A stretch of DNA of 37,739 bases from Pseudomonadales bacterium (lineage in GTDB: Bacteria > Pseudomonadota > Gammaproteobacteria > Pseudomonadales > UBA5518): positions 1 to 37,739 of the forward strand of contig JAGPES010000002.1 of the NCBI GenBank assembly GCA_018057015.1, read 5' to 3'. Position numbers and translations under genes: made by a program. The first letter of the stretch is position 1; every line of letters starts with the position of its first letter. The notes beneath the pieces were generated by a model that saw nothing but the letters and a program-made list of their open reading frames with translations, was not told where the DNA came from and did not search any database. Below, one piece after another: positions 56-22,527 of this stretch.

Positions 56-127
56 TCCCCGATAGCTCAATGGTAGAGCACCCGGCTGTTAACCGGGTTG
101 TTGTAGGTTCGAGTCCTACTCGGGGAG
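56..127 (+). tRNA. tRNA-Asn (anticodon GTT)
   Basis: Manual cloverleaf. Acceptor TCCCCGA/TCGGGGA (56-62/120-126). D arm GCTC-AATGGTA-GAGC. Anticodon arm CCCGG-CTGTTAA-CCGGG with GTT at 88-90. Variable loop TTGTT. T arm GTAGG-TTCGAGT-CCTAC. Discriminator G127. CCA is not encoded. Confidence 0.9.
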
Positions 128-1624
128 CTTTTTGTGCCAGTCCTCGAACCGTCGCGCGTTCGGTAACGCGTACCAGACCTCGACGGTTCGGCGGTCGTGG
201 ATGAGCACCTTCTTCACCAGCCGGTGGAGGAGGTGCTTCTTTTGTGGGACCGGGGCCTCCGCCAGGACCTCCTCGAAGTTGTCCACCAGGGCGGCGAGCA
301 TGTCCCGGTCGATCGCGGGTAGTTCCAGCCGCTCCCTCCGGACCTCCAGGTCCCGCCGTTCCGTTTCCAACGCCTCCATCCGCCCCTGGAGGTCGGCGAC
401 CTTCTGGTTGCAGAGCTCGGCCTTCAACGTGCCGGCCTCGAACGCCTCGAAGTAGCGCTCGACCGACGCCCGGACCTTGGCGGCCTCCGCCTCCACGCGG
501 GCGATCTCCTTTTCCAGGTCGGGTTTCTCAGCGCCCAATCGTCGGTTGGCCTCTTCCCAAACGCGGGCCATGAAATCCTCGTCGCGGAACATCGCCTTGA
601 TGTCCTGGACGATCGCCGACTCGAGCAACTCGGCCCGGACGTAGTCCTGCTTGCACGCGTGGTCGTTGAAGCGCTTCGAGCAGACGTAGTACGGGATGTA
701 GCGCCCGTTCTTCTGTCCGCCGCCGCCGAACATGTGCGAGTTGCACAGGCCGCACTTGATGACGCCGGTGAGCAGGCGTTCGTCGCCGTTGTGCCACTGG
801 CGGCCCTTCAGATCTTCATGCCGGTCGTCAAGGACCTCGCGCGCCTTCTCGAAGAGCACGTCGGAGACGATCGGGTCGTGCTTCCCCTCGTAGAGCACCT
901 CGCGCCAGCGAATCTTCCCGACGTAGGCCGGGTTCTTGAGCATGTAGAGGACGACGCGCCGGCCCCACTTCCGGCCATTGCGGTTCCGTAGGCCGGCGTC
1001 GTTGAGCTTCGTGCAGATCGTGGACGCACCCTCGCGGCCCAGCGCGTACATCGTGAACATCTTGCGGACGATCAGCGCCTCTTCCTCGTGGATCACGAGG
1101 TGCTTGTCGTCGTCGAGCCGGTAGCCGTACGGGACGTTGCCCCCGACGTAATTGCCGGTCTTGGCTTTCCGCTCGAGGCCGACGCGCGTCCGCTCGACGA
1201 TCGTCGCGTGCTCAAACTCGGCGAAGACACCCAGCATCTGGAGCATCATCTTGCCGGCGGCGTTGGACGTGTCGAACGGCTCGGTGATGCTCTTCAGCGT
1301 GACGCCGTTCTTCGTGAGCTCGTCCACCATCAGGGCGAGCTCGCGGACTTTGCGGGACAGGCGGTCGACGCGGAACACCAGGAGCACGTCGAAGGCCCGC
1401 GCTTCGGCGTCGAAGAGCATCTCCTCGAGGCCGGGCCGGTTCATGTGCGTGCCCGATTCGGTGTCGCGGTAGAGCTTGTGGAGCGTCCAGTCGTCGTCGT
1501 ACTGGGCCTTACAGAAGGCCTCCAGGCGGTCCTTCTGCGCGTCCAACGAGTATCTCTGGTGGTCCTCGTCGGTGCTGATCCGGGTGTAGAACGCGACCCG
1601 TGGCACGGTTCGGAGCGCTCCCAT
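116..1624 (-). CDS. Large serine recombinase (prophage integrase)
   Basis: N-terminal resolvase-type catalytic motif VAFYTRISTDEDHQRYSLDAQ. Recombinase domain, zinc ribbon (CGLCNSHMF...YYVCSKRFNDHAC) and C-terminal coiled coil. The track ORF extends to 1729, but the extra 35 codons have visibly lower GC3 and no SD. I prefer the ATG at 1624 (MGALRTVPRVAFYTRIS). The stop at 116-118 overlaps the tRNA 3' end. Confidence 0.9.
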   Translation of the reverse strand: MGALRTVPRVAFYTRISTDEDHQRYSLDAQKDRLEAFCKAQYDDDWTLHKLYRDTESGTHMNRPGLEEMLFDAEARAFDVLLVFRVDRLSRKVRELALMVDELTKNGVTLKSITEPFDTSNAAGKMMLQMLGVFAEFEHATIVERTRVGLERKAKTGNYVGGNVPYGYRLDDDKHLVIHEEEALIVRKMFTMYALGREGASTICTKLNDAGLRNRNGRKWGRRVVLYMLKNPAYVGKIRWREVLYEGKHDPIVSDVLFEKAREVLDDRHEDLKGRQWHNGDERLLTGVIKCGLCNSHMFGGGGQKNGRYIPYYVCSKRFNDHACKQDYVRAELLESAIVQDIKAMFRDEDFMARVWEEANRRLGAEKPDLEKEIARVEAEAAKVRASVERYFEAFEAGTLKAELCNQKVADLQGRMEALETERRDLEVRRERLELPAIDRDMLAALVDNFEEVLAEAPVPQKKHLLHRLVKKVLIHDRRTVEVWYALPNARRFEDWHKKLPE

Positions 1625-1782
1625 CGTATTGCCGCCGCATGTTTTACGCGCGTCGGCACGGACCACACCCTTGCTCGTCTTGCGCCCGGAATCAAGGCCA
1701 TTTGGCGCCGGTTTGGCGGCAGTTTTCATGAATGGGAAAGGCCGGTTCAGACGCGTTGTCGGGGACCGGAATCCGGCCTGTC

Positions 1783-1807
1783 GTACCTAACGATTGTTCG
1801 GTACAAT
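1783..1807 (+). promoter_or_regulatory. Imperfect 22-bp palindrome (Cheo/SOS-box-like core) overlapping a -10-like TACAAT; candidate operator/promoter of the plus-strand cassette
   Basis: GTACCTAACGATTGTTCGGTAC (1783-1804) is self-complementary at 18/22 positions. Its core cTAACgattGTTCg resembles the GAAC-N4-GTTC LexA box at 7/8 half-site positions. TACAAT lies at 1802-1807. The element sits in the divergent gap between the integrase and the 292-aa gene. Confidence 0.35.
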
Positions 1808-1880
1808 GTGGCCTGGCTCGGCGCGGAGGCACGAGTGACGTCGCTGCGGAGCGCGACGGAGCCCGCGTCACGGGCACGCG

Positions 1881-2759
1881 GTGCTGGACAACGGAAGCGT
1901 CCGGCCGGTTGCGGCCACCAGAGTGAAGCACGTGACGACGGAATCTACGAGCTTTCAGCCCGACACACGGGTGCTCGACAAGTTCATCCGCTGGATCGAA
2001 CGATTCGACCAGCACCACGCCCGCGCTTGGGCGCACCGGTACAAGGCTGATCCAGAGGCAGCCACCTGCGAGTCCATGTTCTGGGGCGTTCTCGCCGACT
2101 GCGGGGTCTCGGTCGAGCCCAATACGAATCCGACCGGTCAGAAGAAGGCCCCCGACTTCGTCTGCCGGAAGGGCGACCGTAAATTCTACGTCGAAGTCAC
2201 GTGCATACGCACCGATACCGCGACCGAGCACAGCGCACTCCCGCCCGTCTTCACCGAGGGAGCGCGGAACTACCGCCCGCTCAACGACGCGATCTTCGCG
2301 GAAGTGACCTCGAAGACGCCACAGTGCGCGAACCTCGACGCGCCATGTGTCCTCGCTGTTGGCACGTTTCATTATCACGCTTCCGTCTCCTGCATCCGGA
2401 AGACGTTCGTCGAGTGGCTGCTGACTGGGGAGACCAGCATCTCTTGGTACTTCGACCCGCGCCGCGGTGAGGCGGTCGGCAAACCGTTTCAATCGACAAA
2501 GTTGAAGTCCGCTACATTCCTGAAGCCCAGCCCGCTCGTCGGCGTCGAGCCCGCTCGGAAGCCGATCTCGGCGCTCGTGGTTGCAGGATTCGGCTGCAAA
2601 CCGCCGCACGTGTACGGAGTGCTTCATCCACGCCCGGCGCGCGAGTTTGAGGCGGAGCTTCTCGATCGAATCCCATTCTGCCGCGTGAAGTACGACATCC
2701 GCGCCGCATCAATCACGACCGAATGGACGCAGGACCCCGATCAGGAGACAGCGAAATGA
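1881..2759 (+). CDS. Hypothetical protein with a PD-(D/E)xK-like nuclease signature (non-canonical third residue)
   Basis: High GC3 in this frame, whereas the antisense 311-aa ORF is R/G/A/V-rich shadow. Motif ..EAATCESMF..KKAPDFVCRKGDRKFYVEVTCI fits E...PD...(E)x(T), a restriction-endonuclease-like layout with Thr in place of Lys. The start is uncertain: GTG at 1881, 1923 or 1932, none with a strong SD. Confidence 0.6.
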   Translation: MLDNGSVRPVAATRVKHVTTESTSFQPDTRVLDKFIRWIERFDQHHARAWAHRYKADPEAATCESMFWGVLADCGVSVEPNTNPTGQKKAPDFVCRKGDRKFYVEVTCIRTDTATEHSALPPVFTEGARNYRPLNDAIFAEVTSKTPQCANLDAPCVLAVGTFHYHASVSCIRKTFVEWLLTGETSISWYFDPRRGEAVGKPFQSTKLKSATFLKPSPLVGVEPARKPISALVVAGFGCKPPHVYGVLHPRPAREFEAELLDRIPFCRVKYDIRAASITTEWTQDPDQETAK

Positions 2760-2837
2760 GTATTTGCGATCGAACAGCGGGAGCGACTGCGCTCCACGTC
2801 GCCGGCCGGTCCTCTTACTGAGTGCGGAGGAACAGTG

Positions 2838-3470
2838 ATGCCGCCGCGAAGCATCACGAGCCTGACACCGCGTCAGCGGGAAGTGCTGGAGTGGATTGCT
2901 GGTTTCATCCGCGCGCATGGAATGCCGCCGACGGTGCGGGAAATCGGGACCGCGTTCGGCATCAAGAGCTCAAGCGTTTTCGACGTGCTGAAGGCGCTGG
3001 AAAGGAAAGGCGTGCTTCGGCGAGGTGAACTCGGCGCTCGCTCGCTGATCGTCACTGGCGCTCGCCGCCGAGAGCCTGGCCCCTATGTGGAGGTCCCCCT
3101 CGTCGGCCGCATCGCCGCCGGCCGCCCCATCGAGGCCATTCAGGATGATCACGGAAACCTGACCGTCCGGCGCGACCTGCTGCGGGGCCAACACGGTTAC
3201 GCGCTACAGGTCGTCGGCGACAGCATGATCGACGCGGGGATTCTCGACGGCGACTACATCGTGGTCTGCAAGCAGGAAACTGCGGAGGACGGCGACATCG
3301 TTGTAGCACTCATCGAAAACGAGGCGACGCTGAAGCGGTTCTACCGCGAACCGGACGCCGTGCGACTCGAGCCGGCGAACCCCACCATGCGGTCGATACG
3401 GGTAAGTGCGGGAGATTTTCGAATTCAGGGAACGGTTGTAGCCGTCCAACGGCTGCTTGGGCGTCGGTAG
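2838..3470 (+). CDS. lexA: LexA-family repressor (winged-helix DNA-binding domain + S24 autopeptidase)
   Basis: LexA-type N-terminus LTPRQREVLEWIAGFIRAHGMPPTVREIGTAFGIKSSSVFDVLKALERKGVLRR. Ala-Gly cleavage site in VGRIAAGRPIEA. Catalytic Ser in VGDSMIDAGI and Lys in ATLKRF. GGAGG at 2826-2830 lies 7 nt before the ATG at 2838. Confidence 0.9.
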   Translation: MPPRSITSLTPRQREVLEWIAGFIRAHGMPPTVREIGTAFGIKSSSVFDVLKALERKGVLRRGELGARSLIVTGARRREPGPYVEVPLVGRIAAGRPIEAIQDDHGNLTVRRDLLRGQHGYALQVVGDSMIDAGILDGDYIVVCKQETAEDGDIVVALIENEATLKRFYREPDAVRLEPANPTMRSIRVSAGDFRIQGTVVAVQRLLGRR

Positions 3471-3500
3471 TCGCACGCACGTACGGAGCGAGAGAAGTAC

Positions 3501-6254
3501 ATGAGAATCACGGCACTGGAGGCCTTCGGCATCGATCCGCGTATCCTCGGCCTGTGGCAGCAGGCGGGATTCGCAGAACTCCTTCCGATCCAGCAGCAGG
3601 CCGTGCAAAAGGCCAAGGTTCTGGACGGCGGCAACGCAGTCATCTTCTCACCGACATCGTCGGGGAAGACGTTCGTTGGCGAGATGGCCGCGGTCAGAAC
3701 TGCTCGAAAGAGCCGACGCGTGATCTACCTCGTACCGCAGAAGTCGCTGGCTGAGGAGAAGTTCCACGAATTCCGATCGCGCTACGGCTCGCTGGGCGTG
3801 CGCGTGGTCATCTCGACCCGGGACCGCAGGGAAGATGACCCGCACATCCGACGCGGCCGGTTTCACATCGCCGTGATCGTCTTCGAGAAGATGCACGCAT
3901 TGATGGTGAACTGCCCGACGATCCTGCGCAACGTGGGCCTCGTCGTAATCGACGAGCTGCAGATGCTCGGGGATGAAACGCGTGGCCCCGCGCTTGAGAT
4001 TCTCCTGACGAAGGTACTGCTCGCGGCGGACAAGCCCCAGATCATCTGCCTCTCGGCGGTACTCGGCAACGCGAAAGACCTGGCAGCTTGGCTGGATGCC
4101 ACGCTTTGTGAAGATCACCGACGTCCTGTCGAACTGCGGCGCGGGGTGCTTTACCAGGGCCTCTTCAGCTACATGGAGCACAACGAGAAAAGGGAGGGTT
4201 CTGAGCCGCTGGCCGGATCGGATGGCGAGGCGAATCGGCTCGCCATTCTCGTGGAGCAGGTTAAGTCGCTGGCGGCGCGCGGTGAGCAGAGCTTGGTCTT
4301 CTGCCGGAGTAAGAAGGAGTGCATGGACACGGCATGGCCGATCGCTGGGGCGCTCGACCTCGGCCACGCGGACAGCGCGCTCGCGGAGTTGCGGGACCTT
4401 GAGGACTCGGAAGGGAAGGACTATCTGGCGAAGCTCCTTCAACGCCGCGTGGCGTTCCACAACGCCGATCTGGATTGGCACCAGCGCGAAGTGATTGAGC
4501 GCGCGTTCCGCCGCGGCGAAATCCTCGTGGTTTGTTCCACGACGACCCTCGCGATGGGGTTGAATCTACCGGCGCGCAACGTCTTCATCGACACGGAACG
4601 CTGGGACCGTGATCGCGCTGGGCGCTGGACGACCGTTCCCATCAGCCAGGCGGAATACGAGAACATCAGCGGTCGTGCCGGCCGCCTGGGACTGGAGAAG
4701 AACTTTGGCCGCGCGATCGTCATCGCGGAAAGCGAGTTCGATCAGGACAGGCTGTTTGAGACCTACGTCCGGGGGGAACTGGGTGACCTCGAGCCCGCGC
4801 TTGCGAAGGTCCCGCTCTCGCAGCACGTGCTGAACCTGGTCGCGTCGCGCATGTGCCATTCCGAAGCGGAGATCCGCGAGATTCTGCTGGCTTCGTACAC
4901 GGGCTCAGTACATTGGCGCGGCGACGGCCGGGAGTCGGAGTTCACGGACAAGCTGCATGAGGCGATTCATCACTGCGTCGATGGCGGGTTGATCGTTCGC
5001 GGCAAGAAGGGGCTGGAGGCGACTGAGATCGGCAAGCTGGCCGCCGCCAAAGGCGTCGCCGTCGACAGCGCGATTGAGATGCACGCCTTCTTGCGGGATG
5101 GTGCTGACCGGGCGAGCGAAATCGGCACATTCGAGCTCGTCTGGCACCTGACGGGCACGGCCGATGGCCGGCGCATCCACTTCAACCTCTCGAAGAATGA
5201 ATGGCAGTCTGGCGAGTACGCGGCCATCCTGGTGAAGGAACTGGCCCCACTCGCTTCGCAGGTCCGCCGGCAGCTCCGCGCTGAGATCGGGAGCCTGGAG
5301 GTCAACTACGAGTTGACGCAGCGGGCGAAGAAGGCGCTCCTGCTGTGCGACTGGGTGCGCGGCCTGCCCACGAGGCAAATCGAGGCGCGCTTCCACTGTT
5401 TCGCAGGGAGCATCTCCGGGCTGGGGAGCGAGTTCGCGTGGCTGGCCGAAACGCTGGCGGGCATGGCCAAAGTCATCGGCTGGCCGGACGAATCCACTGC
5501 GCGGCTCGAGTCCCTCTCAGGACAGCTCGTCCACGGCGTTGAATCGGCGGGCCTGCCTCTCACTGCCATCCGCCTTCGCGGGTTTAGCCGCGGCCGAATC
5601 ATGGCGCTCGTTGCCAAGGGCTGGCACGCGCTGGAGAAGCTGATCGCCGCCCCGCTCGAGGAGTTGCGCAAGCTGGTTACGAAGCCGGTCGCTGAAGCTC
5701 TCCGCGACCAAGTCGCCCGACTGCTGGAGCGAAAAGCGGCGCAGGCGGACGAGGCATCTCAGGCGGCTGGTGTCCCGACGCCCGGCCCGGATGAGTCGGG
5801 TGAGCCGCGAGACTGGGAACCGACGTTTTCGCCCGCTGATGACCTCGGCGCACGGTACCAGAGTGATGCGATGATCCATCTGGACGGGCAGGCGAACAAG
5901 AAGCGCCACCTCATCCGGATCAACGACCAGGAGGTCTACGTCACGCAGCAGTCGTTCGAGACGGCTCTTCGGCTTGCCGTTCGAGCGAAGACGACTGATT
6001 TGGGGTGGGTCTCCGGCCCAGACATTTGCCCGGACAGCTACCACCAAATCTTCCGCCGGCTGCGAGCAGACCTCGGTTCAGCAGGCCTCGACCCCGAGCA
6101 ACTTGTCGAGGGCAACGGCTGCAAGGCCTACCGGCTCTCCGTTCCGCGGGACCACATCACGTGGGACGAACCGCGAATCCGCGCTCATGCTCCGGACTGC
6201 GCGCACGTCCTCGATGCGCTGCCCCGGCCAACTGCAGGAACAAAAGCCACGTAA
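3501..6254 (+). CDS. Hel308/Ski2-like SF2 helicase with a C-terminal OmpR/PhoB-like winged-helix extension
   Basis: Q-motif LLPIQQQAV. Walker A SPTSSGKT. DExx box VVIDELQMLGDETRGPALE. LSAVLGN, RPVEL and motif VI SGRAGR. Helix-hairpin-helix-like segment GFSRGRIMALVAKGWHALEKLIAAPLEELRKL. After a P/E/A-rich linker comes HLIRINDQEVYVTQQSFETALRLAV...YHQIFRRLRADLG...GCKAYRLSV, which matches the OmpR-type Trans_reg_C pattern. The start is only 30 nt after the lexA stop. Confidence 0.9.
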   Translation: MRITALEAFGIDPRILGLWQQAGFAELLPIQQQAVQKAKVLDGGNAVIFSPTSSGKTFVGEMAAVRTARKSRRVIYLVPQKSLAEEKFHEFRSRYGSLGVRVVISTRDRREDDPHIRRGRFHIAVIVFEKMHALMVNCPTILRNVGLVVIDELQMLGDETRGPALEILLTKVLLAADKPQIICLSAVLGNAKDLAAWLDATLCEDHRRPVELRRGVLYQGLFSYMEHNEKREGSEPLAGSDGEANRLAILVEQVKSLAARGEQSLVFCRSKKECMDTAWPIAGALDLGHADSALAELRDLEDSEGKDYLAKLLQRRVAFHNADLDWHQREVIERAFRRGEILVVCSTTTLAMGLNLPARNVFIDTERWDRDRAGRWTTVPISQAEYENISGRAGRLGLEKNFGRAIVIAESEFDQDRLFETYVRGELGDLEPALAKVPLSQHVLNLVASRMCHSEAEIREILLASYTGSVHWRGDGRESEFTDKLHEAIHHCVDGGLIVRGKKGLEATEIGKLAAAKGVAVDSAIEMHAFLRDGADRASEIGTFELVWHLTGTADGRRIHFNLSKNEWQSGEYAAILVKELAPLASQVRRQLRAEIGSLEVNYELTQRAKKALLLCDWVRGLPTRQIEARFHCFAGSISGLGSEFAWLAETLAGMAKVIGWPDESTARLESLSGQLVHGVESAGLPLTAIRLRGFSRGRIMALVAKGWHALEKLIAAPLEELRKLVTKPVAEALRDQVARLLERKAAQADEASQAAGVPTPGPDESGEPRDWEPTFSPADDLGARYQSDAMIHLDGQANKKRHLIRINDQEVYVTQQSFETALRLAVRAKTTDLGWVSGPDICPDSYHQIFRRLRADLGSAGLDPEQLVEGNGCKAYRLSVPRDHITWDEPRIRAHAPDCAHVLDALPRPTAGTKAT

Positions 6255-6271
6255 TCACAAGGCGTTACGGC

Positions 6272-6383
6272 CTGACGTCAGTCCTGACGGCGCACTGACG
6301 CCGGCCTGACTTTCGTTACCCGCCATCACCGCCAACCGCACGCCCATCGGCAGCGCAGACCCCGCGCGTCAGTCACGAGTCAG
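6272..6383. repeat. Helically phased CTGAC repeat array (4 direct + 2 inverted copies); candidate regulator-binding region
   Basis: CTGAC occurs at 6272, 6284, 6295 and 6306 (spacing 12, 11, 11 bp), mostly as CCTGACG. The first copy is part of the palindrome TGACGTCA. Two tandem GTCAGTCAC copies (the reverse orientation) start at 6368 and 6379, spacing 11. The array sits between the helicase stop and the com-like gene. Confidence 0.6.
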
Positions 6384-6477
6384 TCACTACCTCGTCATTT
6401 CGATTGCCGCGCGATCACGGCATCGTAGCTCGCAGTGACGCGCGCGGTGCGCGCCACGATTTGCTCGGAGGTGCGGT

Positions 6478-6696
6478 TTGACCTCGCAACGCGAATGGCG
6501 CTGCTCACGCTGCGGAAAGCTCCTCGGGCTGCTCGACAGCTCGCGACTCCACATCAGCTTCGCCCGTGGACACGAGTACCTCGTCGGGTTCCCGGCGACC
6601 GCCGTGTGCCGCGGATGTCGCACTCTCAACGAGTTGGGGGAGCCGCGCAGCGCTGCGCCGTGCGAGGACGATGGAGGCTCACGAACCGAGCACTGA
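6478..6696 (+). CDS. Mu Com-like zinc-finger protein
   Basis: WRCSRCGKLLGLL....VCRGCRTLNEL gives two CxxC knuckles with the Com-family RCxxCGKLL / CxxCxTLN pattern. TTG start at 6478 lies 5 nt after GGAGG (6468-6472). Confidence 0.6.
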   Translation: MTSQREWRCSRCGKLLGLLDSSRLHISFARGHEYLVGFPATAVCRGCRTLNELGEPRSAAPCEDDGGSRTEH

Positions 6697-6787
6697 GCTG
6701 TACTTGATCTCTGTAACCGAGAGGCGCGCGACGCCCTGAAACCGGCCATGACGAGGCGCCTGACGCCCGGCCGCAAGGCAGGGCGTC

Positions 6788-7546
6788 ATGTCGAGCGTCG
6801 CGCGCGACGCGGATCGTCGGCAGCTCGAGCGAGAGTTGCAGGACGATGGATACAGCAAGCTACTCAACGTGCTGCGGCAGGGACATCCGTTCTTCCGGCG
6901 CTTCCCGAGTTGGAATGAGGTAGTGGGGTTCATGCGTCAGGGAGTGTTTCGCGCCTCGGAGAAGGACCAGGTACTGCTTCCGATCCTCCAGGCCCACGCC
7001 GAGGACGGCGACCCGCGCTGGCGGACGATCCTGCTCGTGATCTTCTGGCCCGGCTTGGAGGGGATCTGGCGACGGAAGTGGCACTGGGACCGCGACCCGG
7101 ACGCGCTATGGGCAAACATCGGCTGGGCATTTCTGCGCGCCGTCTGTCGCCTCGATCCATCGACACGGGCGAGCCGGCTGGCGCAGAAGATCGTCAACGA
7201 CGTCTTCCACGGTCTGCATGACGATTACCGGCGGGAATGGCGCCGGGCCGCGCGGGAGGTCGCTACCGATCCCGACGAGTTGGCCGACCGCGACGTCGAG
7301 GACCAGCGCGATGCGGCGGCCGCGGCGCTCCACATGGAGCAACAGGCGCGCATCGAGGTCCTGAGGGCGCACCGCGCAGCCGGGCGAATCAACGACACGG
7401 ACTTCCTTCTGCTTCTCGGGACGCAGGTCTACGGCCGGCCGCTCGCCGACTGCGCGCGTGAGTCAGGGCTGACGTACGAAGCTGCGAAGAAGCGCCAGCA
7501 ACGGGCCATCCGCGCGATCGGCGGTTTCCCGCAAGACGAATCCTGA
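6788..7546 (+). CDS. Divergent sigma-70/ECF-like transcription factor (putative)
   Basis: Region-2-like segment (LWANIGWAFLRAVCRLDPSTRASRLAQKIVNDVFHGLHDDYRREWRR). C-terminal region-4-like HTH (GRPLADCARESGLTYEAAKKRQQRAIRAI). High GC3. Confidence 0.5.
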   Translation: MSSVARDADRRQLERELQDDGYSKLLNVLRQGHPFFRRFPSWNEVVGFMRQGVFRASEKDQVLLPILQAHAEDGDPRWRTILLVIFWPGLEGIWRRKWHWDRDPDALWANIGWAFLRAVCRLDPSTRASRLAQKIVNDVFHGLHDDYRREWRRAAREVATDPDELADRDVEDQRDAAAAALHMEQQARIEVLRAHRAAGRINDTDFLLLLGTQVYGRPLADCARESGLTYEAAKKRQQRAIRAIGGFPQDES

Positions 7547-11335: not shown

Positions 11336-11689
11336 ATGATCGATGGCGCGGACAAGTTCTGTCGCGTGCAGATCTCCGGGCCAAAGTTCAGCGTGACATA
11401 CGAAGAGCGCCCAGAGACCGAAGAAGAAGCCGCATGCGACGTCGAGTTGGCCTCGCTCGCAATCACTGGCGCCCTTGCGATGGCGTCATACGACCTGCCG
11501 CGTCTGACCCAGGTCCTGGCCCATGTCGTCAGCGATCTTGTTTCTCGCGAGCGCGAGCGTGTTCCCCGCGAGGCGTGCGACATGAAGGCGGTGCGTCAGG
11601 CCGAAGACGCCTTCCATCACGCGGCGGACAGGCTGAGGTTTGAGTGGGGGAAACATGACGCGCAGCGGTACAAGGAGCGCGCCACGTGA
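11336..11689 (+). CDS. Hypothetical protein
   Basis: ATG follows GGGAG. The stop overlaps the helicase start at 11686. No motif recognised. Confidence 0.55.
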   Translation: MIDGADKFCRVQISGPKFSVTYEERPETEEEAACDVELASLAITGALAMASYDLPRLTQVLAHVVSDLVSRERERVPREACDMKAVRQAEDAFHHAADRLRFEWGKHDAQRYKERAT

Positions 11690-13221
11690 TCCTCCGCGAC
11701 TACCAGCAGCGCGCCGTACAGAACGTGATCGCCGCCTTGGGCCGGCGCCCGATCCTCGTTGCGCCGACCGGTAGCGGCAAGACGGTGATGGCCACGGCGC
11801 TGGTCGAGCAGCTCGGCGTGCAGGCGCTGTGGCTGGCCCACCGCCAGGAGCTGATTGACCAAGCCGCAAAGAACCTCGAGGCCCACGGACTTGTGTGCGG
11901 CATCATCATGGCCGGCTACGCGCCGATGCCGCTCGCGCAGGTACAGGTCGCGTCGGTGCAGACGCTGATCCGGCGCGACAAGCCGCCCGCGGACCTGATC
12001 GTCATTGACGAATGCCATCACGCGACCGCGGACAGCTACCAGTCGGTCCTCGACGCGTACCCGCAGGCGCGTGTCGTTGGCTTGACCGCGACGCCGTTCC
12101 GGCTCGACGGCCACGGCCTGGGTGACCTGTTCGGCGAGCTGGTCATCGCGGCGTACCCGCACGAGCTCTGCGAAAACGGCGTGCTGCACCAACCGAAGGT
12201 CTGGGCTTCCAAGTCGCCGGACCTGCGCGGCGTCAAGGTGATCGCCGGCGATTATAGCATCGGCGCGCTGGCCCAACGCACAAACACGGCCGAACTCAAC
12301 GCCGACATCGTGGCAACCTGGCAGAAACGTGCCGCAGGCAGGCGTACCGTCGCGTTCGCGGTGGACGTGGCGCACTCAAAGGCCATCGCCGCGGCCTTCG
12401 TGGCCTCCGGCGTGTCGGCTGAGCACATCGACGGCCGCACGTATGAGCGCGACACCGTCCTGGCGCGACTGGCGCGGGGCGAAACACTGGTCGTGAGCAA
12501 CTGCATGGTTCTGACGGAGGGGTGGGACTTGCCCGCGCTCGAATGCGCGATCATCGCCCGGCCCACCGCGTCGTTGAACCTGCACCTGCAGATGATCGGC
12601 CGCGTGATGCGCGCCGCCGATGGCAAGGACGGCGCGATCGTCCTGGACCACGCCGGCAACCATCACGTCCACGGGCTGGTCACGCGTCGGCTGAATTACT
12701 CGCTGAACGGCGAGAAGGTCGGTCACAGCGAACCGCTGGGACTGCGGCGCTGCCAGGAGTGCGGGCTGCTCTTCGAGCTCCACGAGCCGGCCTGCCCAGA
12801 GTGTGGGTGGGCGCCCGCGCCCGAGGAACGGCGCCGCGATCGGCCCGATATACATGGCACCGGCGAGCTGGCCGAGTTCGACGACTCCAGCTTCGAGTAC
12901 CGACGGCAGATCTGGAACCTGATCGAGGCCGAGCGCGAGGCGATGGGCTATCGCGAGGGGTGGAGCTACTACCGTTTCGAGGAGCGCTTCGGCACGAAGC
13001 CGGTCGTCGCCGGCGGCGAGCTGATCGACCCTGTCAACGCAACGCTGGAGCAGAAGCGCGCTGTTTTCGAGCATCTGACGCAGATCGCCGAGCAGCGCGG
13101 CTACAAGCCTGGCTGGGCCTCGTACCGCTTCCGGGACATGTTCGGCTGCTGGCCACGCGGGTTCGTCTCCGACGTGCGCCGCGCACGAATGCGCGAGCGC
13201 TTCGTGGGGGCCAGCACATGA
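11686..13221 (+). CDS. SF2 DEAD/DEAH-box (ResIII-type) phage DNA helicase
   Basis: LRDYQQRAV. Walker A VAPTGSGKT. DEAH box VIDECHH. GLTATP. Helicase-C motifs (VLTEGWDLP, QMIGRVMR). Zinc ribbon CQECG..CPECG. The C-terminus carries a duplicated GY(R/K)xGW(S/A)YYRF..FG motif. Confidence 0.9.
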   Translation: MILRDYQQRAVQNVIAALGRRPILVAPTGSGKTVMATALVEQLGVQALWLAHRQELIDQAAKNLEAHGLVCGIIMAGYAPMPLAQVQVASVQTLIRRDKPPADLIVIDECHHATADSYQSVLDAYPQARVVGLTATPFRLDGHGLGDLFGELVIAAYPHELCENGVLHQPKVWASKSPDLRGVKVIAGDYSIGALAQRTNTAELNADIVATWQKRAAGRRTVAFAVDVAHSKAIAAAFVASGVSAEHIDGRTYERDTVLARLARGETLVVSNCMVLTEGWDLPALECAIIARPTASLNLHLQMIGRVMRAADGKDGAIVLDHAGNHHVHGLVTRRLNYSLNGEKVGHSEPLGLRRCQECGLLFELHEPACPECGWAPAPEERRRDRPDIHGTGELAEFDDSSFEYRRQIWNLIEAEREAMGYREGWSYYRFEERFGTKPVVAGGELIDPVNATLEQKRAVFEHLTQIAEQRGYKPGWASYRFRDMFGCWPRGFVSDVRRARMRERFVGAST

Positions 13222-17700: not shown

Positions 17701-19119
17701 ATGAACCTTGAGTTGCGGCCGCTGGCCGAGATCAAACCGTATCACAGGAACCCGCGCGACAACGATGCGGCGGTGGACGCGGTAGCCGAGTCGATCCGGC
17801 GGTTTGGATTTCGCCAGCCGATCGTGGTCGACGCGGACGGCGTCATCGTCTGCGGGCACACGCGCTGGAAGGCAGCGCAGAAGCTCGGGCTCGAGCAGGT
17901 GCCGGTGCATGTCGCCCGCGACCTGACGCCCGAGCAAATTCGCGCGTACAGGATTGCCGACAACAAGACCGCCGAGCTGGCCGAGTGGAACCTGGAGCTG
18001 CTGCCGATCGAACTGGCGGAACTCCAGGGCGCCGGCATCGATTGGTCGCTGCTTGGGTTCGACGCCGACGAGCTGGCGAAACTGCTCGACCCGGGCGTGA
18101 AGGAAGGTCTGACCGACCCGGATGACATTCCCGAGCCGCCGGACGAGGCCATCACGAAACCCGGCGATCTGATCGTCCTCGGCGATCACCGGCTGCTCTG
18201 CGGCGACAGCGGCTCGGCGGCTGATGTGGACCGACTGATCGATGGTCAGCCAATCCACCTGGTCAACACCGATCCGCCGTACAACGTGAAAGTCGAGCCG
18301 CGCAGCAACAACGCGATCGCCGCGGGACTGTCGTCATTCGCTGGGACGCACAAAGGCGTGAAGGCGCTGGACGCGCAGGGCCTGCACCACAGCGGCTTCG
18401 ACGTGGCCCGCGGCAAGACTGGCATCAAGCACCATCAGAAGCTCGACCTGGAGCGGCACCCGGAGAAGGCGAAGGCCACGCATCGGAAGATGCGCGCCAA
18501 GGACCGTCCGCTGGCGAACGACTTCGTGTCGGACGAGGAGTTCGACCGGCTGCTGCGCGCCTGGTTCGGCAACATCGCCCGCGTGCTGCTGCCCGGACGA
18601 GCGCTGTACTGCTGGGGCGGCTACGCGAACTGCGCGAACTACCCGCCCGTGCTGAAGGTTTGCGGGCTGTACTTTTCGCAGGCGATCATCTGGGTCAAGG
18701 AGCATCCGGTCCTCACGCGCAAAGACTTCATGGGCAACCATGAATGGTGTTTCTACTGCTGGCGCGAAGGCGCGGCGCACGTCTACCTCGGGCCAAATAA
18801 CGCGACCGATGTGTGGTCCGTCAAGAAGGTCAATCCACAGAGCATGGTGCATTTGACGGAAAAGCCCGTCGAGCTGGCGGTGCGCGCCATGCAGTACTCG
18901 TCGCGCGCGGGTGAGAACGTGTTAGACCTGTTCGGCGGCAGCGGCTCGACGCTGATCGCGGCGGAGCAGACCGGCCGGCGCGCGTTTCTGATGGAACTCG
19001 ACCCGCTCTACTGCGATGTCATCGTCCAGCGGTGGGAGAAGTTCACAGGGCTGAAGGCGGAGCGGATCACGGACCGTGAGAACGCCCCGGTTGTGGCCGA
19101 GGCGTCCGTGGAGGGCTGA
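17701..19119 (+). CDS. ParB-like N-terminal domain fused to a beta-class DNA methyltransferase (probably N6-adenine)
   Basis: ParB/Srx-type N-terminus (IKPYHRNPRDNDAAVDAVAESIRRFGFRQPIVVD...VCGHTRWKAA). Motif IV NTDPPYN lies upstream of motif I LDLFGGSGSTLIAAEQTGRRAFLMELDPLY. GGAGG lies before the ATG at 17701. Confidence 0.9.
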   Translation: MNLELRPLAEIKPYHRNPRDNDAAVDAVAESIRRFGFRQPIVVDADGVIVCGHTRWKAAQKLGLEQVPVHVARDLTPEQIRAYRIADNKTAELAEWNLELLPIELAELQGAGIDWSLLGFDADELAKLLDPGVKEGLTDPDDIPEPPDEAITKPGDLIVLGDHRLLCGDSGSAADVDRLIDGQPIHLVNTDPPYNVKVEPRSNNAIAAGLSSFAGTHKGVKALDAQGLHHSGFDVARGKTGIKHHQKLDLERHPEKAKATHRKMRAKDRPLANDFVSDEEFDRLLRAWFGNIARVLLPGRALYCWGGYANCANYPPVLKVCGLYFSQAIIWVKEHPVLTRKDFMGNHEWCFYCWREGAAHVYLGPNNATDVWSVKKVNPQSMVHLTEKPVELAVRAMQYSSRAGENVLDLFGGSGSTLIAAEQTGRRAFLMELDPLYCDVIVQRWEKFTGLKAERITDRENAPVVAEASVEG

Positions 19120-19137
19120 GATGCGTCGTAGGCAGCG

Positions 19138-19377
19138 CTATGACAGGTCGGGCTGCGACTCCTCGGCGGGCAGGTCGGGTACGACCAGGATCGTGACGGG
19201 GTACTCGATGGGCTGGTCCCATTCGTTCACCCCGATCAGCGCGCGGGCCTTGATCACCGGCCCGATGGCCTGCGTGTCGACCACGCGCGGCTCGCGGAAG
19301 GTCAGGTCGCCCATCATGGTCTGCGACAGCATCGTGTGCAGGCCGTCCAGGATGTGGGAGTGTACTTCAGTCGTCAT
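19138..19377 (-). CDS. Hypothetical protein (79 aa), last gene of the antisense operon
   Basis: GGAG lies 7 nt before the ATG at 19377, which overlaps the upstream stop by 11 nt. High GC3. The stop is only 18 bp from the convergent methylase stop. Confidence 0.6.
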   Translation of the reverse strand: MTTEVHSHILDGLHTMLSQTMMGDLTFREPRVVDTQAIGPVIKARALIGVNEWDQPIEYPVTILVVPDLPAEESQPDLS

Positions 19378-19765
19378 CGCGGTTCTCCTTTGCGGAAACG
19401 TGGTTGGCTCCGGCTTCCTCGGCCAGAGCGAAAAACTCTGTCATCGCGTCCAGGTGGACGCTGCACGTGGCGGCGTAGTTCCGCCGGTAGCGGACGTCGA
19501 GGATGCTGCGCTCGCGCAGAAATGCGAGCGCGACCGCGACGTTCGTGAACGTGACGTCGCGGCCGGCGTTGCGCTCGTAGGTGACGAGCGCCTCCAGCGT
19601 GAAGCCGGTTTCGCCGAGCTCGTCGGCCGCATGGGCGATCTGCTCGAACGCGGCCCGCGGGCAGCGGTGCTCGTACGGCTGCCCGCGGACCGGCACGACC
19701 TTGCGGACCAGGTGGTGGCCCAGGACCTCGAAGGTCTCCTCGCGCTGGGAGATGGTCGCGGCCAC
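19367..19765 (-). CDS. Hypothetical protein (132 aa)
   Basis: GTG start at 19765 lies 8 nt after GGAGG. Natural amino-acid composition. No motif recognised. Confidence 0.6.
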   Translation of the reverse strand: MAATISQREETFEVLGHHLVRKVVPVRGQPYEHRCPRAAFEQIAHAADELGETGFTLEALVTYERNAGRDVTFTNVAVALAFLRERSILDVRYRRNYAATCSVHLDAMTEFFALAEEAGANHVSAKENRDDD

Positions 19766-19768
19766 GAG

Positions 19769-20377
19769 CTACACCTCCACCGCGACGGCGGCGCTGGCGA
19801 ACTGCCCGCGCTCGACTTTGCGGAACCGGGCCGCGTCGCCCTTCGTGGCCATCTCGCGGATGATCGCGGCGTACAGCGTGGCCTCGGGCGTCTTGCCGCC
19901 GGGGCTCGACCACAACCCACGCTCGGCCATCGCGTCGATCATCTCCTTGGCCCGCATCGGCTGGCCAGCATCGGCCAGGACCTGGGCCGCGGCGTCCAGC
20001 GCGCTGACCCGCTTGGGCTTCGGTTCGGCGGCGGGCTTGCGCGTGCGGGTCTTCTTCTCGGGCACCGGCTGGCCGGTGATGACCTCGACGTTCGGGTTGA
20101 CCTCGGGCTCCGCGGCCTCCGCGCGAGCGGCGGTGATGCCCTGATCGGCGGGCGTGACCTCCGCGCTGGCCTTCTTCGAGCGCCGGTTCGCCGGCGCCTC
20201 GTCGCCCACCGCCCGCCGCAGGCGCTGGGCGCTCTTGATGCGGATGCGCTTGCCCGTGGCGGTGTTCGTCGCGTTCCACCCTCCATGCGTGTTGGTGCTG
20301 TCGATCCGCACCGTCACGATGCGGTCGCTCACTTTGGCGCTGTACGCGTGTCCGATCTTGATCTCGTCCTTCTTCAT
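19769..20377 (-). CDS. HARE-HTH domain protein with an N-terminal small beta domain and a Lys/Pro/Ala-rich linker
   Basis: The C-terminus VSALDAAAQVLADAGQPMRAKEMIDAMAERGLWSSPGGKTPEATLYAAIIREM...RFRKVERGQFA matches the HARE-HTH (RpoE-delta/ASXL/restriction-enzyme N-terminal) pattern from memory. AAGGAG lies 6 nt before the ATG at 20377. Confidence 0.65.
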   Translation of the reverse strand: MKKDEIKIGHAYSAKVSDRIVTVRIDSTNTHGGWNATNTATGKRIRIKSAQRLRRAVGDEAPANRRSKKASAEVTPADQGITAARAEAAEPEVNPNVEVITGQPVPEKKTRTRKPAAEPKPKRVSALDAAAQVLADAGQPMRAKEMIDAMAERGLWSSPGGKTPEATLYAAIIREMATKGDAARFRKVERGQFASAAVAVEV

Positions 20378-20458
20378 GGCCGTCTCCTTATGTGTTTGGC
20401 CTCGTCAGGCCCGGGTCTCCAGCGCCCGGGCGACCCGCCGGAGCGGGTTTCGGCGGCT

Positions 20459-20788
20459 TCAGGCGAGCAGGTCGTCATACGCCTCGAGCTTGGTCAGCGC
20501 GGCCTGGACGTCGTCCCACAGGCTGGTGCGCAGCCAGACCAGCGCCATGTGGGCGTCCTTCGTGTTCTCCGCGCTCTCGATCCGGCCGATGGCCTCGCTG
20601 AGCTTGTCGCGGAGCCAGGTCATGTCCTCGTGGGCCTTCAGCGCGATGTACGCGGCCTTGACCGCGAGGTCCGCCTTGCGGCCGTCGTCGGTCGCTTCGC
20701 CGACGTTGCCGGCCTGGTGCGCGGCGATGCGGTTGGCGAGTGCTCGCTCGACGATCGGCAGCGTCTTTTCGTTCTTTTTCGCTGGCAT
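20459..20788 (-). CDS. Hypothetical helical protein (109 aa)
   Basis: GGAGGAG lies 6 nt before the ATG at 20788. High GC3. Confidence 0.6.
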   Translation of the reverse strand: MPAKKNEKTLPIVERALANRIAAHQAGNVGEATDDGRKADLAVKAAYIALKAHEDMTWLRDKLSEAIGRIESAENTKDAHMALVWLRTSLWDDVQAALTKLEAYDDLLA

Positions 20789-20803
20789 GGTGCTCTCCTC
20801 CGG

Positions 20804-21028
20804 TTAGTTGACGGGAACCGTGATGATGCGGTGCGTACCGTCCGGCATCTCGTGGTCGCACACGTACGCGAACTCGACGCCCGCGGCGGCCAGGCGGTCG
20901 ATCTCAGCCTGCTCGGCGACGTAGTTCTTGCCGCCAAGCAGAATCGCCTCGCCCTTGCCGCTGGCGTGCGTCCACTGGATGGCCTCGTGGGCCGTCGGGA
21001 ACTCGATTGCCTTGAACTCGATGCTCAT
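20804..21028 (-). CDS. Hypothetical protein (74 aa)
   Basis: AGAGG lies 7 nt before the ATG at 21028. The gaps to both neighbours are 15 bp. Confidence 0.6.
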   Translation of the reverse strand: MSIEFKAIEFPTAHEAIQWTHASGKGEAILLGGKNYVAEQAEIDRLAAAGVEFAYVCDHEMPDGTHRIITVPVN

Positions 21029-21043
21029 TGGTGTGCCTCTGCG

Positions 21044-21385
21044 CTACTTGGCGTAAATGGTCTCGGCCAGGCCGGCCGCCAGGACGTCGACGATCGCGGC
21101 GGCCAGCGGCGTGGTCGGACGGATGTCCCAGCCGCGGTCGAAATTCGCGGCCGTCGTTTGCGTGTCGAGCTGCTTGAGCCAGAGCTTCGAGATGCGGCTG
21201 TCGCCCAACTCGAAATCCGGCGACTCGGCGTGCTCGGGGAAGACCAGGGCGTCGAAGCGGTGCCCGGCGATCGTGCCGACCACCCAGGACCCGCCGCAGC
21301 TCGTGCGGCGCTGAACCTTCGTGATCCGCAGCGTTTCCAGGATCTCGCTGGCGTCCGGCGTCTGGTTCGTGTCGTTCGTCGTCAT
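21044..21385 (-). CDS. Hypothetical protein (113 aa)
   Basis: AAGGAG lies 8 nt before the ATG at 21385. High GC3. Confidence 0.6.
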   Translation of the reverse strand: MTTNDTNQTPDASEILETLRITKVQRRTSCGGSWVVGTIAGHRFDALVFPEHAESPDFELGDSRISKLWLKQLDTQTTAANFDRGWDIRPTTPLAAAIVDVLAAGLAETIYAK

Positions 21386-21412
21386 CGGCGTTGCTCCTTT
21401 GCGTTGCGACAG

Positions 21413-21778: not shown

Positions 21779-21808
21779 GGTCCTACCTCCGTTGGGTGTG
21801 CGGGGCGC

Positions 21809-22042: not shown

Positions 22043-22072
22043 CGGAATTGCTCCTCGCATTGGTTTGGGGGG

Positions 22073-22429: not shown

Positions 22430-22527
22430 GCCCGCATCCGGGCGGCCTGGACCCGATACTCGTTACATACGCCGCCCCGGGGCCGCCCTGTCGGACCCGG
22501 GGGCGGCCGTGGGCGGGAGGCGGCGTG

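What the first reader, a model, noticed from the sequence alone, without database searches (positions are those of the whole stretch)
1881..6254. Integrase-proximal three-gene cassette: PD-(D/E)xK-like protein + LexA-type autopeptidase + Hel308-like helicase (Hachiman-like, but with a built-in regulator)
Seen: three co-directional genes lie between the integrase and the phage early genes. The gaps between them are 75 nt and 30 nt.
- The first is a 292-aa protein with an E...PDF...YVEVT restriction-endonuclease-like signature.
- The second is a complete LexA protein, with winged helix, Ala-Gly cleavage site and Ser/Lys dyad.
- The third is a 917-aa helicase with Hel308/Ski2 hallmarks (SGKT, DELQ..RGP.LE, RPVEL, HhH-like domain).
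The phage has its own separate replication helicases at 11686 and 14454, so this helicase is not needed for replication.
Established: the prophage arm next to the integrase is a typical location for accessory 'moron' or defence genes. The Hachiman defence system pairs a PD-(D/E)xK-type effector (HamA) with a Hel308/Ski2-like helicase (HamB).
Inference: this may be a Hachiman-related or entirely new nuclease-helicase module. The inserted RecA*-cleavable LexA paralogue would give it a DNA-damage input. Alternatively it could be a new kind of lysogeny switch in which the repressor is co-expressed with a DNA-sensing helicase. I do not know of a described system with this gene trio.
Basis: partly seen in the sequence, partly recalled or inferred. 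Interest (0 to 1): 0.8.

Follow-up and report, generated by a model that had tools for sequence, protein, structure and literature searches.

The report
SOS-controlled prophage helicase operon with inserted nuclease
The three genes are real but are not one defence system: a damage-responsive LexA repressor and an unusual Hel308-type helicase form a module conserved in several related prophages, and in this prophage alone an unrelated nuclease-like gene typical of defence islands has been inserted behind the module's promoter.

Summary
In detail: three co-directional genes lie at 1881-6254, with gaps of 75 and 30 nt and the stated motifs. The Hachiman-like trio reading fails.

- The 292-aa gene is a ~1-kb insertion. 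The closest relatives (L093, helicase 93% identical; L094/L095) have integrase | promoter-operator | lexA | helicase without it.
- Its homologues sit alone inside BREX, next to RM and CBASS, and elsewhere. None of the nine other places examined has this LexA or helicase.
- It has a weakly supported PD-(D/E)xK-like fold and weakly resembles PD-T7-1, not HamA.
- The helicase aligns over its full length with Hel308, not HamB. It also has a C-terminal OmpR/SARP-type winged helix.

What is conserved is lexA-helicase. LexA lies directly upstream in 16 of 90 helicase loci across phyla. In all eight loci checked plus L093-L095, a palindromic operator (CTAAC-N4-GTTAG type) lies between the -35 and -10 hexamers. 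In the window this operator now precedes the inserted gene, so all three genes are probably SOS-inducible.

New lead: 11-bp-phased repeats (CTGAC x4 here) follow the helicase gene and precede a Com-like and ECF-sigma-like operon. They are about 13-fold enriched across loci, and their motif tracks the winged-helix recognition helix. The helicase may therefore be a LexA-gated activator or initiator of the lytic programme (inference).

The parts
56..128 (+). tRNA-Asn flanking the prophage; its 3' end is overlapped by the end of the integrase gene
   Evidence: ARAGORN and Rfam. The same tRNA-Asn | integrase junction occurs in the related prophage L017.
116..1729 (-). Large serine recombinase (prophage integrase), divergent from the cassette
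   Evidence: Resolvase + Recombinase + Zn_ribbon_recom domains. It is 67-74% identical to the integrases of L013, L017 and L177, which also abut the helicase module.
1779..1807 (+). Promoter with an embedded LexA-type operator. The parts are a -35-like TGTCGT (1779-1784), the imperfect palindrome TACCTAAC-GATT-GTTCGGTA (1784-1803, core CTAACGATTGTTCG 1787-1800) and the -10 TACAAT (1802-1807).
   Evidence: It is homologous to the promoter-operator lying about 40 nt upstream of lexA in L093/L094/L095 (GCTGTCGTATCTAACGCGCGTTAGATACAATG). The same layout (-35 / palindrome / -10) precedes lexA in all 8 other LexA-helicase loci examined. It is the only match with 0 or 1 mismatches in the 37.7-kb window.
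1824..2820 (+). Approximately 1-kb insertion relative to sister prophages, carrying only the 292-aa gene
   Evidence: Alignment of both flanks with L093/L094. Homology runs through the promoter-operator to about 1823 and resumes at the lexA ribosome-binding site near 2821.
1881..2759 (+). 292-aa gene (a start at GTG 1932, giving 275 aa, fits the homologues better). The product has an N-terminal PD-(D/E)xK-like domain and a C-terminal beta-rich domain. It belongs to a Planctomycetota-restricted family associated with defence islands.
   Evidence: There are 85 homologues, all without Pfam domains. The AlphaFold model has pLDDT 91. Foldseek top hits are all PD-(D/E)xK nucleases but are not significant. 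16 of 38 members hit the PADLOC PD-T7-1 model weakly. Contexts include BREX, RM and CBASS.
2838..3470 (+). LexA-type autocleavable repressor (210 aa from ATG 2838; the longest ORF starts at GTG 2835)
   Evidence: TIGR00498 198 bits against a cut-off of 111. Ala-Gly, Ser and Lys are invariant. LexA lies directly upstream of the helicase in 16 of 90 helicase loci.
3501..6254 (+). 917-aa Hel308-like superfamily-2 helicase (DELQ box) with a C-terminal extension
   Evidence: Full-length match to Hel308 profiles and structures. The family has more than 1,600 members of about 900 aa. Motifs are invariant.
5868..6215 (+). C-terminal OmpR/SARP-type winged-helix DNA-binding domain of the helicase (residues ~790-905)
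   Evidence: AlphaFold pLDDT is about 95 over this domain. Foldseek best hits are EmbR (prob 1.0, 110 columns, rmsd 3.2) and BaeR. PF00486 is precomputed for many family members.
6272..6383 (+). Phased repeats: CTGAC at 6272, 6284, 6295 and 6306 (11-12-bp spacing), then inverted GTCAG at 6368 and 6379
   Evidence: The same architecture occurs in L093, L094, L013, L017, L016, L019, L177 and L014. Phased arrays are about 13-fold enriched in the 500 bp after the helicase stop across 75 loci.
6478..6696 (+). Small Cys4 zinc-ribbon protein. The resemblance to phage Mu Com is by eye only.
   Evidence: CxxC...CxxC is read from the sequence. It is conserved next to the helicase in 7 loci. No Pfam family matches.
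6788..7546 (+). Divergent ECF-type sigma factor (252 aa), first large gene of the early region
   Evidence: The family profile hits the ECF sigma factors CnrH (E 1e-4) and RpoE (6e-4) in the PDB. Members hit Sigma70_r4_2 and r2. It is found near the helicase in 26 of 90 loci.

Best explanation
The cassette is two unrelated units sharing one promoter.

Unit 1 is conserved: an operon of lexA plus a Hel308-like helicase with a C-terminal OmpR/SARP-type winged helix. It is carried at the integrase-proximal end of a family of Planctomycetota (and more distant) prophages. Its promoter carries a palindromic LexA operator between the -35 and -10 hexamers. LexA should therefore hold the operon low in a healthy lysogen. 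RecA-stimulated self-cleavage (Ala-Gly, Ser and Lys are intact) should release it after DNA damage. The operator, the operon structure and the conservation are shown. Repression and cleavage are inferred from what is established for LexA.

Unit 2 is cargo. In this prophage only, a one-gene insertion of about 1 kb landed between that promoter-operator and lexA. It encodes a PD-(D/E)xK-like protein of a family that otherwise roams defence islands. The cargo gene is therefore now probably co-transcribed and SOS-inducible (inferred).

Most likely role of the helicase (inferred): it is the output of the switch. Through its winged helix it would bind the 11-bp-phased CTGAC repeats that lie just after its gene. 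These repeats lie in front of the operon for the Com-like protein and the ECF-type sigma factor. There it would activate early transcription or open DNA for replication. This would link DNA damage to the lytic programme.
For: Insertion:
- L093 (helicase 93% identical) and L094/L095 (72%) have integrase | promoter-operator | lexA | helicase | the same early genes, with no 292-aa gene.
- Flank alignments place the insert at about 1824-2820.

Independence of the 292-aa gene:
- Its homologues lie between pglX and pglZ of BREX in two separate loci.
- Others lie in a type I RM-like island, beside CBASS, behind an ImmA-like peptidase and next to a tyrosine integrase.
- None of these places has this LexA or helicase.

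lexA-helicase unit:
- LexA is immediately upstream on the same strand, with overlap or a gap of at most about 100 nt, in 16 of 90 helicase loci.
- These loci span Planctomycetota, Myxococcota and viral contigs.
- LexA and helicase identities fall in parallel, from 57/54% to 42/40%.
- None of 80 ordinary LexA loci has the helicase.

Operator:
- A perfect or near-perfect palindrome flanked by -35 and -10 hexamers precedes lexA in all 8 loci examined and in L093-L095.
- The homologous site in the window is at 1784-1803 and is unique there.

Helicase:
- It is a full-length Hel308 relative with a SARP/OmpR-type winged helix.
- Other family members sit behind recA (L056) or beside WYL-WCX regulators (L026, L034), which also points to DNA-damage control.

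Repeats:
- 17 phased arrays were observed in the 500 bp after the helicase stop, against 1.3 expected.
- One of the 17 (L058) lies in a repetitive coding region and is a false positive, and several of the loci are close relatives.
- The repeat motif differs between clades and tracks the predicted recognition helix: YHQxIRRL with CTGAC/CTAAC, RY[KR] with xCGAC, and other helices with AACAT, CCGTTA and TAACA.
- An ECF-sigma-like gene follows in 26 of 90 loci.
Against: - No expression, binding or cleavage data exist. Co-transcription of the inserted gene with lexA is inferred from the lack of a second operator or promoter-like element in the 75-nt gap.
- The promoter does not pass a generic sigma-70 scan.
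- L013 and L017 keep the helicase, repeats and sigma gene without any LexA gene or operator. LexA gating is therefore optional for the module.
- The repeats keep their orientation relative to the early genes when lexA-helicase is inverted (L014/L015/L018). They could be the sites of another protein.
- Loci used for the enrichment test are partly related to each other, and the background is mostly coding DNA.
- Many chromosomal family members (Binatia, next to mutS2) show no arrays.
- The nuclease fold of the 292-aa protein is not statistically significant (best Foldseek E 0.05 against the PDB and 0.01 against the viral library). The canonical Lys of the ExK motif is replaced by Thr.
Confidence: 0.6

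Rival explanations
1. The three genes form one Hachiman-like or new defence system, in which a PD-(D/E)xK effector is controlled by a helicase sensor and LexA supplies a DNA-damage input.
For: The three genes share one promoter-operator in this prophage. The helicase core hits HamB and PDC-M23B models in PADLOC at about 1e-40. The 292-aa protein has a nuclease-like fold and defence-island relatives.
Against: The trio is seen only in identical copies of this prophage. Sister prophages lack the 292-aa gene. None of the 292-aa homologues examined is next to this helicase or LexA. No HamA/DUF1837 hit was found. The helicase starts at residue ~20 like Hel308 and lacks the HamB N-terminal region. 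The PDB HamB match covers only the first RecA domain.
Confidence: 0.04
2. LexA is simply the prophage's CI-like master repressor of lysogeny, and the helicase is a passenger replication or recombination gene in the same transcript.
For: It is the only recognisable repressor between the integrase and the early genes. The self-cleavage residues are intact. In L014/L015/L018 it is divergent from the early genes, like cI and cro. Phage-encoded LexA homologues with regulatory roles are known (GIL01, PMC6182141).
Against: Only one operator exists in 37.7 kb, and none is near the early genes at 6255-6790. L013 and L017 have the same integrase, helicase and early genes but no LexA. Lysogeny in this phage family therefore cannot depend on it in general.
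Confidence: 0.2
3. lexA-helicase is a self-contained SOS repair cassette. After damage, a Hel308-type helicase is made to rescue stalled or broken replication forks of phage or host, and it has no sequence-specific or regulatory role.
For: It shows full-length Hel308 homology, including a motif IVa-like AFHNADL. Family members lie behind recA, beside WYL regulators and next to mutS2. It is analogous to the LexA-regulated imuA-imuB-dnaE2 cassette (own knowledge).
Against: It does not explain the conserved SARP/OmpR-type winged helix. It also does not explain the phased repeats right after the gene, whose motif changes with the recognition helix. The recurrent pairing with an ECF-sigma-like gene in mobile elements is likewise unexplained.
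Confidence: 0.3

Closest known systems
Hachiman (HamA nuclease + HamB helicase; PMC12278908)
   Same: A Ski2/Hel308-related superfamily-2 helicase lies near a PD-(D/E)xK-like protein, with a link to DNA damage.
   Different: There is no HamA (DUF1837). The helicase has Hel308 architecture without the HamB N-terminal region. The two genes are not co-inherited. A LexA gene and a winged-helix domain are present.
LexA-regulated gene cassettes on mobile DNA, such as lexA2-imuA-imuB-dnaE2, and LexA-controlled phage induction genes such as coliphage 186 tum (own knowledge); the GIL01 phage LexA homologue gp6 (PMC6182141)
   Same: A lexA copy or LexA operator travels with the gene it controls. SOS derepression couples DNA damage to a repair or induction function.
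   Different: The controlled gene here is a Hel308-type helicase fused to a DNA-binding domain. The LexA is a complete, cleavable LexA encoded by the prophage itself.
Archaeal Hel308/Hjm and metazoan HELQ (PDB 2p6r, 2zj2; PMC13623763)
   Same: It has the five-domain helicase core, the conserved motifs and a full-length alignment.
   Different: It is bacterial and prophage-borne. It has a DELQ rather than a DExH box. It has about 170 extra C-terminal residues forming a winged helix. Scores are far below the NCBIfam equivalog cut-offs.
SARP/OmpR-family activators (EmbR, AfsR, PhoB) and origin-binding helicases such as phage P4 alpha (own knowledge)
   Same: A winged helix is paired with direct repeats spaced one helical turn apart. 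A helicase gene lies next to its presumed binding sites.
   Different: No known SARP is fused to a Hel308 helicase. P4 alpha is a primase fused to a helicase of a different family. Binding here is untested.
PD-T7-1, a single-gene E. coli anti-phage system (PMC9519451)
   Same: It shows weak profile similarity over the nuclease-like core (16 of 38 family members). It is a single gene found in prophages and defence islands.
   Different: Only about 105 of 452 profile positions match, at E from 7e-4 to 5e-6. The protein is about 40% shorter and the family is restricted to Planctomycetota. No phenotype is known.

Membership tests
Hachiman | HamA (DUF1837) effector encoded next to the helicase | tested here: not met
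   No DUF1837 or HamA hit for the 292-aa protein or for any of 38 homologues in Pfam or PADLOC. HamA is not among the Foldseek hits.
Hachiman | HamB-type helicase (N-terminal region plus helicase core; full-length match to HamB models) | tested here: not met
   PADLOC HamB hits cover only the helicase core, and the core begins at profile positions 160-300. PDB HamB 8vx9 matches residues 25-199 only, at 78 bits, against 207-211 bits full-length for Hel308.
Hachiman | The two genes are co-inherited | tested here: not met
   The closest prophages lack the 292-aa gene. 292-aa homologues occur without the helicase.
LexA (TIGR00498) | LexA DNA-binding winged helix plus S24 peptidase domain, scoring above the family cut-off | tested here: met
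   198 bits against a cut-off of 111. PF01726 and PF00717 both match.
LexA (TIGR00498) | Ala-Gly cleavage site and Ser/Lys catalytic dyad | tested here: met
   A94-G95, S129 and K166 are invariant in 10 helicase-linked LexAs.
LexA (TIGR00498) | Palindromic operator in its own promoter (autoregulation) | tested here: met
   A palindrome lies between the -35 and -10 hexamers upstream of lexA in 8 loci plus L093-L095. The homologous site in the window is at 1784-1803. Binding itself was not tested.
LexA (TIGR00498) | RecA*-stimulated self-cleavage | not testable with these tools
   Needs biochemistry.
Hel308/Hjm | Full-length five-domain architecture (two RecA domains, winged helix, ratchet, helix-hairpin-helix) | tested here: met
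   Residues 1-750 align with the full length of 2zj2, 2p6r and 9b15 at E about 1e-60. PF21280 (archaeal helicase domain 4) matches. NF002654 matches positions 9-717 of 739.
Hel308/Hjm | Score above the curated equivalog cut-off | tested here: not met
   372 bits against 887 (NF002654) and 272 against 1200 (NF040935). It is a distinct bacterial/viral subfamily with an added C-terminal domain.
PD-(D/E)xK nuclease superfamily | Restriction-endonuclease-like core fold with E / PD / (D/E)xK residues | tested here: inconclusive
   The model is confident (pLDDT 91). The top Foldseek hits in both libraries are PD-(D/E)xK nucleases (Hjc, Bax1, EcoRV, VRR-NUC), but E is at least 0.01. E64, PD91-92 and E105 are invariant, but ExK reads E-V-T; an invariant K145 lies elsewhere.
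PD-T7-1 | Match to the PADLOC PD-T7-1 profile over most of its length | tested here: not met
   The match covers residues 85-180 against profile positions 184-289 of 452, at E 7e-4. 16 of 38 homologues match, the best at 4.7e-6. This is remote similarity only.
OmpR/SARP winged-helix DNA-binding domain (PF00486) | Beta-sheet, three helices and a wing hairpin | tested here: met
   Foldseek hits EmbR at prob 1.0 and BaeR at 0.92. PF00486 is recorded for many family members. Pfam does not detect it in the window protein itself.

The most novel reading that the evidence does not exclude
The Hel308-type helicase is a new kind of sequence-targeted motor. Its SARP/OmpR-like winged helix would dock on the 11-bp-phased repeats in front of the phage ECF-sigma operon. 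The helicase would then switch on early transcription or fire a replication origin. The prophage's own cleavable LexA would gate its synthesis, giving the cascade DNA damage, LexA cleavage, helicase, phage sigma factor, lytic cycle. The same helicase-repeats-sigma module would then be a widespread but undescribed control unit of mobile elements in several phyla.
Probability: 0.35. Interest if true: 0.8.

Novelty: new variant of a known kind. Interest (0 to 1): 0.6.

Why it matters
Hel308/HELQ helicases have been studied as archaeal and metazoan repair enzymes, and I found no characterised bacterial or phage member. Here a family of more than 1,600 proteins carries an added DNA-binding domain. 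It is repeatedly wired to DNA-damage regulators (LexA, WYL regulators, recA) and to a phage sigma factor.

If the helicase is the output of a LexA-gated switch, this would be a new route from the SOS response to prophage induction, and a new use of a helicase as a site-directed activator or initiator.

The inserted gene shows how a defence-island gene can be captured into a damage-inducible prophage operon. It also flags an uncharacterised accessory gene of Planctomycetota BREX systems.

The result also corrects an attractive but wrong defence-system call.

Tried and rejected
- Hachiman/HamA membership was rejected: Pfam, PADLOC and Foldseek give no HamA signal.
- A direct peptide-pattern scan of genomes with the single helicase sequence found nothing. 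The alignment-based scan worked.
- A search for more LexA operators in the window found only chance-level matches apart from 1787-1800.
- The generic promoter/terminator scan found no sigma-70 promoter and no terminator after the helicase. It is uninformative in this GC-rich, non-model host.
- The RNA fold of 6240-6480 is not exceptional (z = -1.6). Rfam finds nothing in the cassette.
- The host LexA box could not be established. A Phycisphaerales lexA locus (L152) shows no comparable palindrome, and the literature only says that the Planctomycetes motif differs from that of E. coli (PMC3108266).
- Cultured phages (INPHARED) contain no close helicase homologue, only archaeal lipothrixvirus Hjm-like genes at 22-24% identity.
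- No Pfam hit was obtained for the helicase C-terminus or for the 252-aa protein as single sequences. Structure and profile searches were needed.
- One "array" (L058, Binatia) lies in a repetitive coding region and is a false positive.

Full report
**1. Observation**

The window carries tRNA-Asn (56-128) and a large serine recombinase on the minus strand (116-1729). Three plus-strand ORFs follow at 1881-2759 (292 aa), 2835-3470 (LexA) and 3501-6254 (917-aa helicase). They are separated by 75 and 30 nt.

The element is a real prophage:
- Late genes: terminase, portal, protease/capsid and tape measure.
- Early genes: a PDDEXK_1 nuclease, an AAA_24 ATPase, a ResIII/SNF2 helicase and a protein with a weak Toprim (primase-type) domain.

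**2. The 292-aa gene is independent cargo**

It has 85 homologues, all of about 270 aa, all from Planctomycetota and none with a Pfam domain. I examined nine other genomic places:
- Two independent BREX loci carry it between pglX and pglZ.
- One copy is in a type I RM-like island with DUF1016 and DUF2513 genes.
- One is about 2 kb upstream of a CBASS operon.
- One follows an ImmA-like peptidase.
- One is divergent from UvrD-like helicase genes.
- One is beside a tyrosine integrase.
- Two copies of one locus lie in an ordinary-looking neighbourhood.

None of these places has this LexA or this helicase. The exact trio is found only on identical copies of the same prophage.

The closest relatives are decisive. 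L093 (helicase 93% identical) and L094/L095 (72%) have integrase, lexA, helicase and the same early genes, but no 292-aa gene. Flank alignments show that homology runs through the promoter to about 1823 and resumes at the lexA ribosome-binding site near 2821. The gene is therefore a one-gene insertion of about 1 kb.

Its AlphaFold model is confident (pLDDT 91). Foldseek gives no significant hit, but the top matches in both libraries are PD-(D/E)xK nucleases: Hjc, Bax1, EcoRV, the DdmD nuclease domain and VRR-NUC. Sixteen of 38 family members weakly hit the PADLOC model of the single-gene system PD-T7-1 (PMC9519451). There is no HamA signal.

**3. The helicase is Hel308-like, not HamB-like**

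Residues 1-750 align with the full length of solved Hel308/Hjm structures at E about 1e-60, and with NF002654 at 372 bits. HamB matches only the first RecA domain.

The family is large. More than 1,600 proteins of about 900 aa were found, conserved end to end down to 37% identity. The extra C-terminal region (residues ~790-905) folds confidently. It matches the winged-helix DNA-binding domains of EmbR (a SARP-family regulator, prob 1.0) and BaeR. PF00486 is recorded for many homologues.

No cultured bacteriophage has a close relative. The reviews I found treat Hel308 as archaeal and metazoan (PMC13623763).

**4. lexA-helicase is the conserved unit**

Across 90 helicase loci (80 genomic, 5 viral, the sister contigs and the window), a LexA gene lies directly upstream on the same strand in 16. 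These loci come from Planctomycetota, Brocadiaceae, Myxococcota, unclassified bacteria and two IMG/VR contigs. LexA and helicase identities to the window proteins fall together, which suggests that they are inherited as a pair.

Conversely, none of 80 ordinary LexA loci from many phyla has the helicase.

In every linked locus examined, a perfect or near-perfect palindrome sits between a TTGAxx -35 hexamer and a TAxxAT -10 hexamer, just upstream of lexA. The palindromes include CTAAC-N4-GTTAG, GAAC-N4-GTTC, AAAC-N4-GTTT and related forms. This is the xAAC-N4-GTTx class known from Gram-positive LexA boxes (own knowledge).

L093-L095 read GCTGTCGTATCTAACGCGCGTTAGATACAATG about 40 nt before the lexA start. 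The window has the homologous CCTGTCGTACCTAACGATTGTTCGGTACAATG at 1777-1808. That is upstream of the inserted gene, and it is the only such site in 37.7 kb.

It follows, by inference, that all three genes are read from one LexA-controlled promoter and that the cargo nuclease gene has become SOS-inducible.

**5. What the helicase may do**

Related prophages show that the helicase always sits beside the early region. In L013 and L017 it follows the integrase directly, with no LexA. In L014, L015 and L018 lexA-helicase is inverted and divergent from the early genes.

In the window, four CTGAC repeats lie just after the helicase stop at 6272, 6284, 6295 and 6306. Two inverted GTCAG copies follow at 6368 and 6379. 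Next come a small Cys4 zinc-ribbon gene (6478-6696) and a 252-aa gene (6788-7546). The profile of the 252-aa family hits ECF sigma factors (CnrH at 1e-4, RpoE at 6e-4).

Across 75 loci, arrays of three or more 5-mers spaced 10-12 bp apart occur at 0.46 per kb in the 500 bp after the helicase stop. Elsewhere the rate is 0.035 per kb. That is 17 observed against 1.3 expected.

The repeat motif differs by clade and follows the predicted recognition helix of the winged helix:
- YHQxIRRL goes with CTGAC(A) in Planctomycetota phages and with CTAACA in a Myxococcia locus.
- RY[KR] goes with GACGAC, GCGACC and TCGAC in three unrelated loci.
- Other helices go with AACAT, CCGTTA, CTACCA and TAACA.

An ECF-sigma-like gene is near the helicase in 26 of 90 loci. 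Other family members sit behind recA or beside WYL-WCX regulators.

Tandem repeats one helical turn apart are the classic target layout of OmpR/SARP winged helices (own knowledge). I therefore infer that the helicase is recruited to these repeats and acts on the sigma-factor operon or on an adjacent origin, with LexA as an optional SOS gate.

Caveats:
- The loci are partly related to each other.
- The background for the enrichment test is mostly coding DNA.
- One of the 17 arrays (L058) is a false positive in a repetitive coding region.
- The repeats keep the orientation of the early genes when the helicase is inverted, so another protein could bind them.
- Nothing has been tested experimentally.

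**6. Verdict**

The Hachiman-like trio is not supported.

The finding is best described as two things. The first is a conserved, operator-controlled lexA-Hel308(winged helix) prophage module. The second is a recently captured nuclease-like gene of a defence-island family.

The module is a new variant of SOS-controlled prophage and mobile-element cassettes. The helicase-repeats-sigma link is a new and testable lead.

Noticed in passing
window 20394-20455 (-): Rfam type II hammerhead ribozyme hit (41.4 bits, gathering score 37). It is antisense to the long ORF 19076-22528 (1150 aa, no PHROG match), in a stretch with extreme AT skew (-0.42 at 20001-21000).
   Followed up: no
window 25448-25520 (+): A tRNA-Met gene lies inside the prophage, between the terminase and portal genes.
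   Followed up: no
window 56-128 / 116-1729; L017 2676-2748 / 2736-4247: The 3' end of a large serine recombinase gene overlaps the 3' end of tRNA-Asn by about 13 nt in two different genomes. The family therefore appears to integrate at tRNA-Asn, which I believe is less usual for serine than for tyrosine integrases (own knowledge).
   Followed up: partly
L001 8001-8813; L259 6280-7092: Homologues of the 292-aa protein occupy a fixed slot between pglX and pglZ in two independent Planctomycetota type 1 BREX loci. This suggests an undescribed BREX accessory gene.
   Followed up: partly
L056 394-1575 and 1572-4379; L026 461-1582; L034 3242-4267: Other members of the helicase family are fused into an operon with recA (overlapping stop and start), or sit divergent from HTH-WYL-WCX regulators. 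These are further links to DNA-damage signalling.
   Followed up: partly
L022 4304-7447 and 7983-10721: Two superfamily-2 helicase genes of this broad family lie about 0.5 kb apart. They are followed by CCGTTA phased repeats, a sigma-54-type AAA+ activator and a serine recombinase.
   Followed up: no
window 17701-19119 (+): A ParB-like nuclease domain fused to a DNA methyltransferase (phrog_498, 1e-125) lies between the replication and packaging genes.
   Followed up: no
L093 12111-13022; L094 10334-11272 (the equivalent window position, just after the helicase at 11686-13221, was not checked): The gene after the SNF2-type helicase in the sister prophages carries an AcrVA2-like Pfam domain. 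This is a possible anti-CRISPR-related gene in this phage family.
   Followed up: no
L014 6740-7060: The intergenic region between the early genes and lexA holds at least five separate CTGAC/GTCAG arrays (17 copies, 37 per kb). This is far more than in the other prophages.
   Followed up: no
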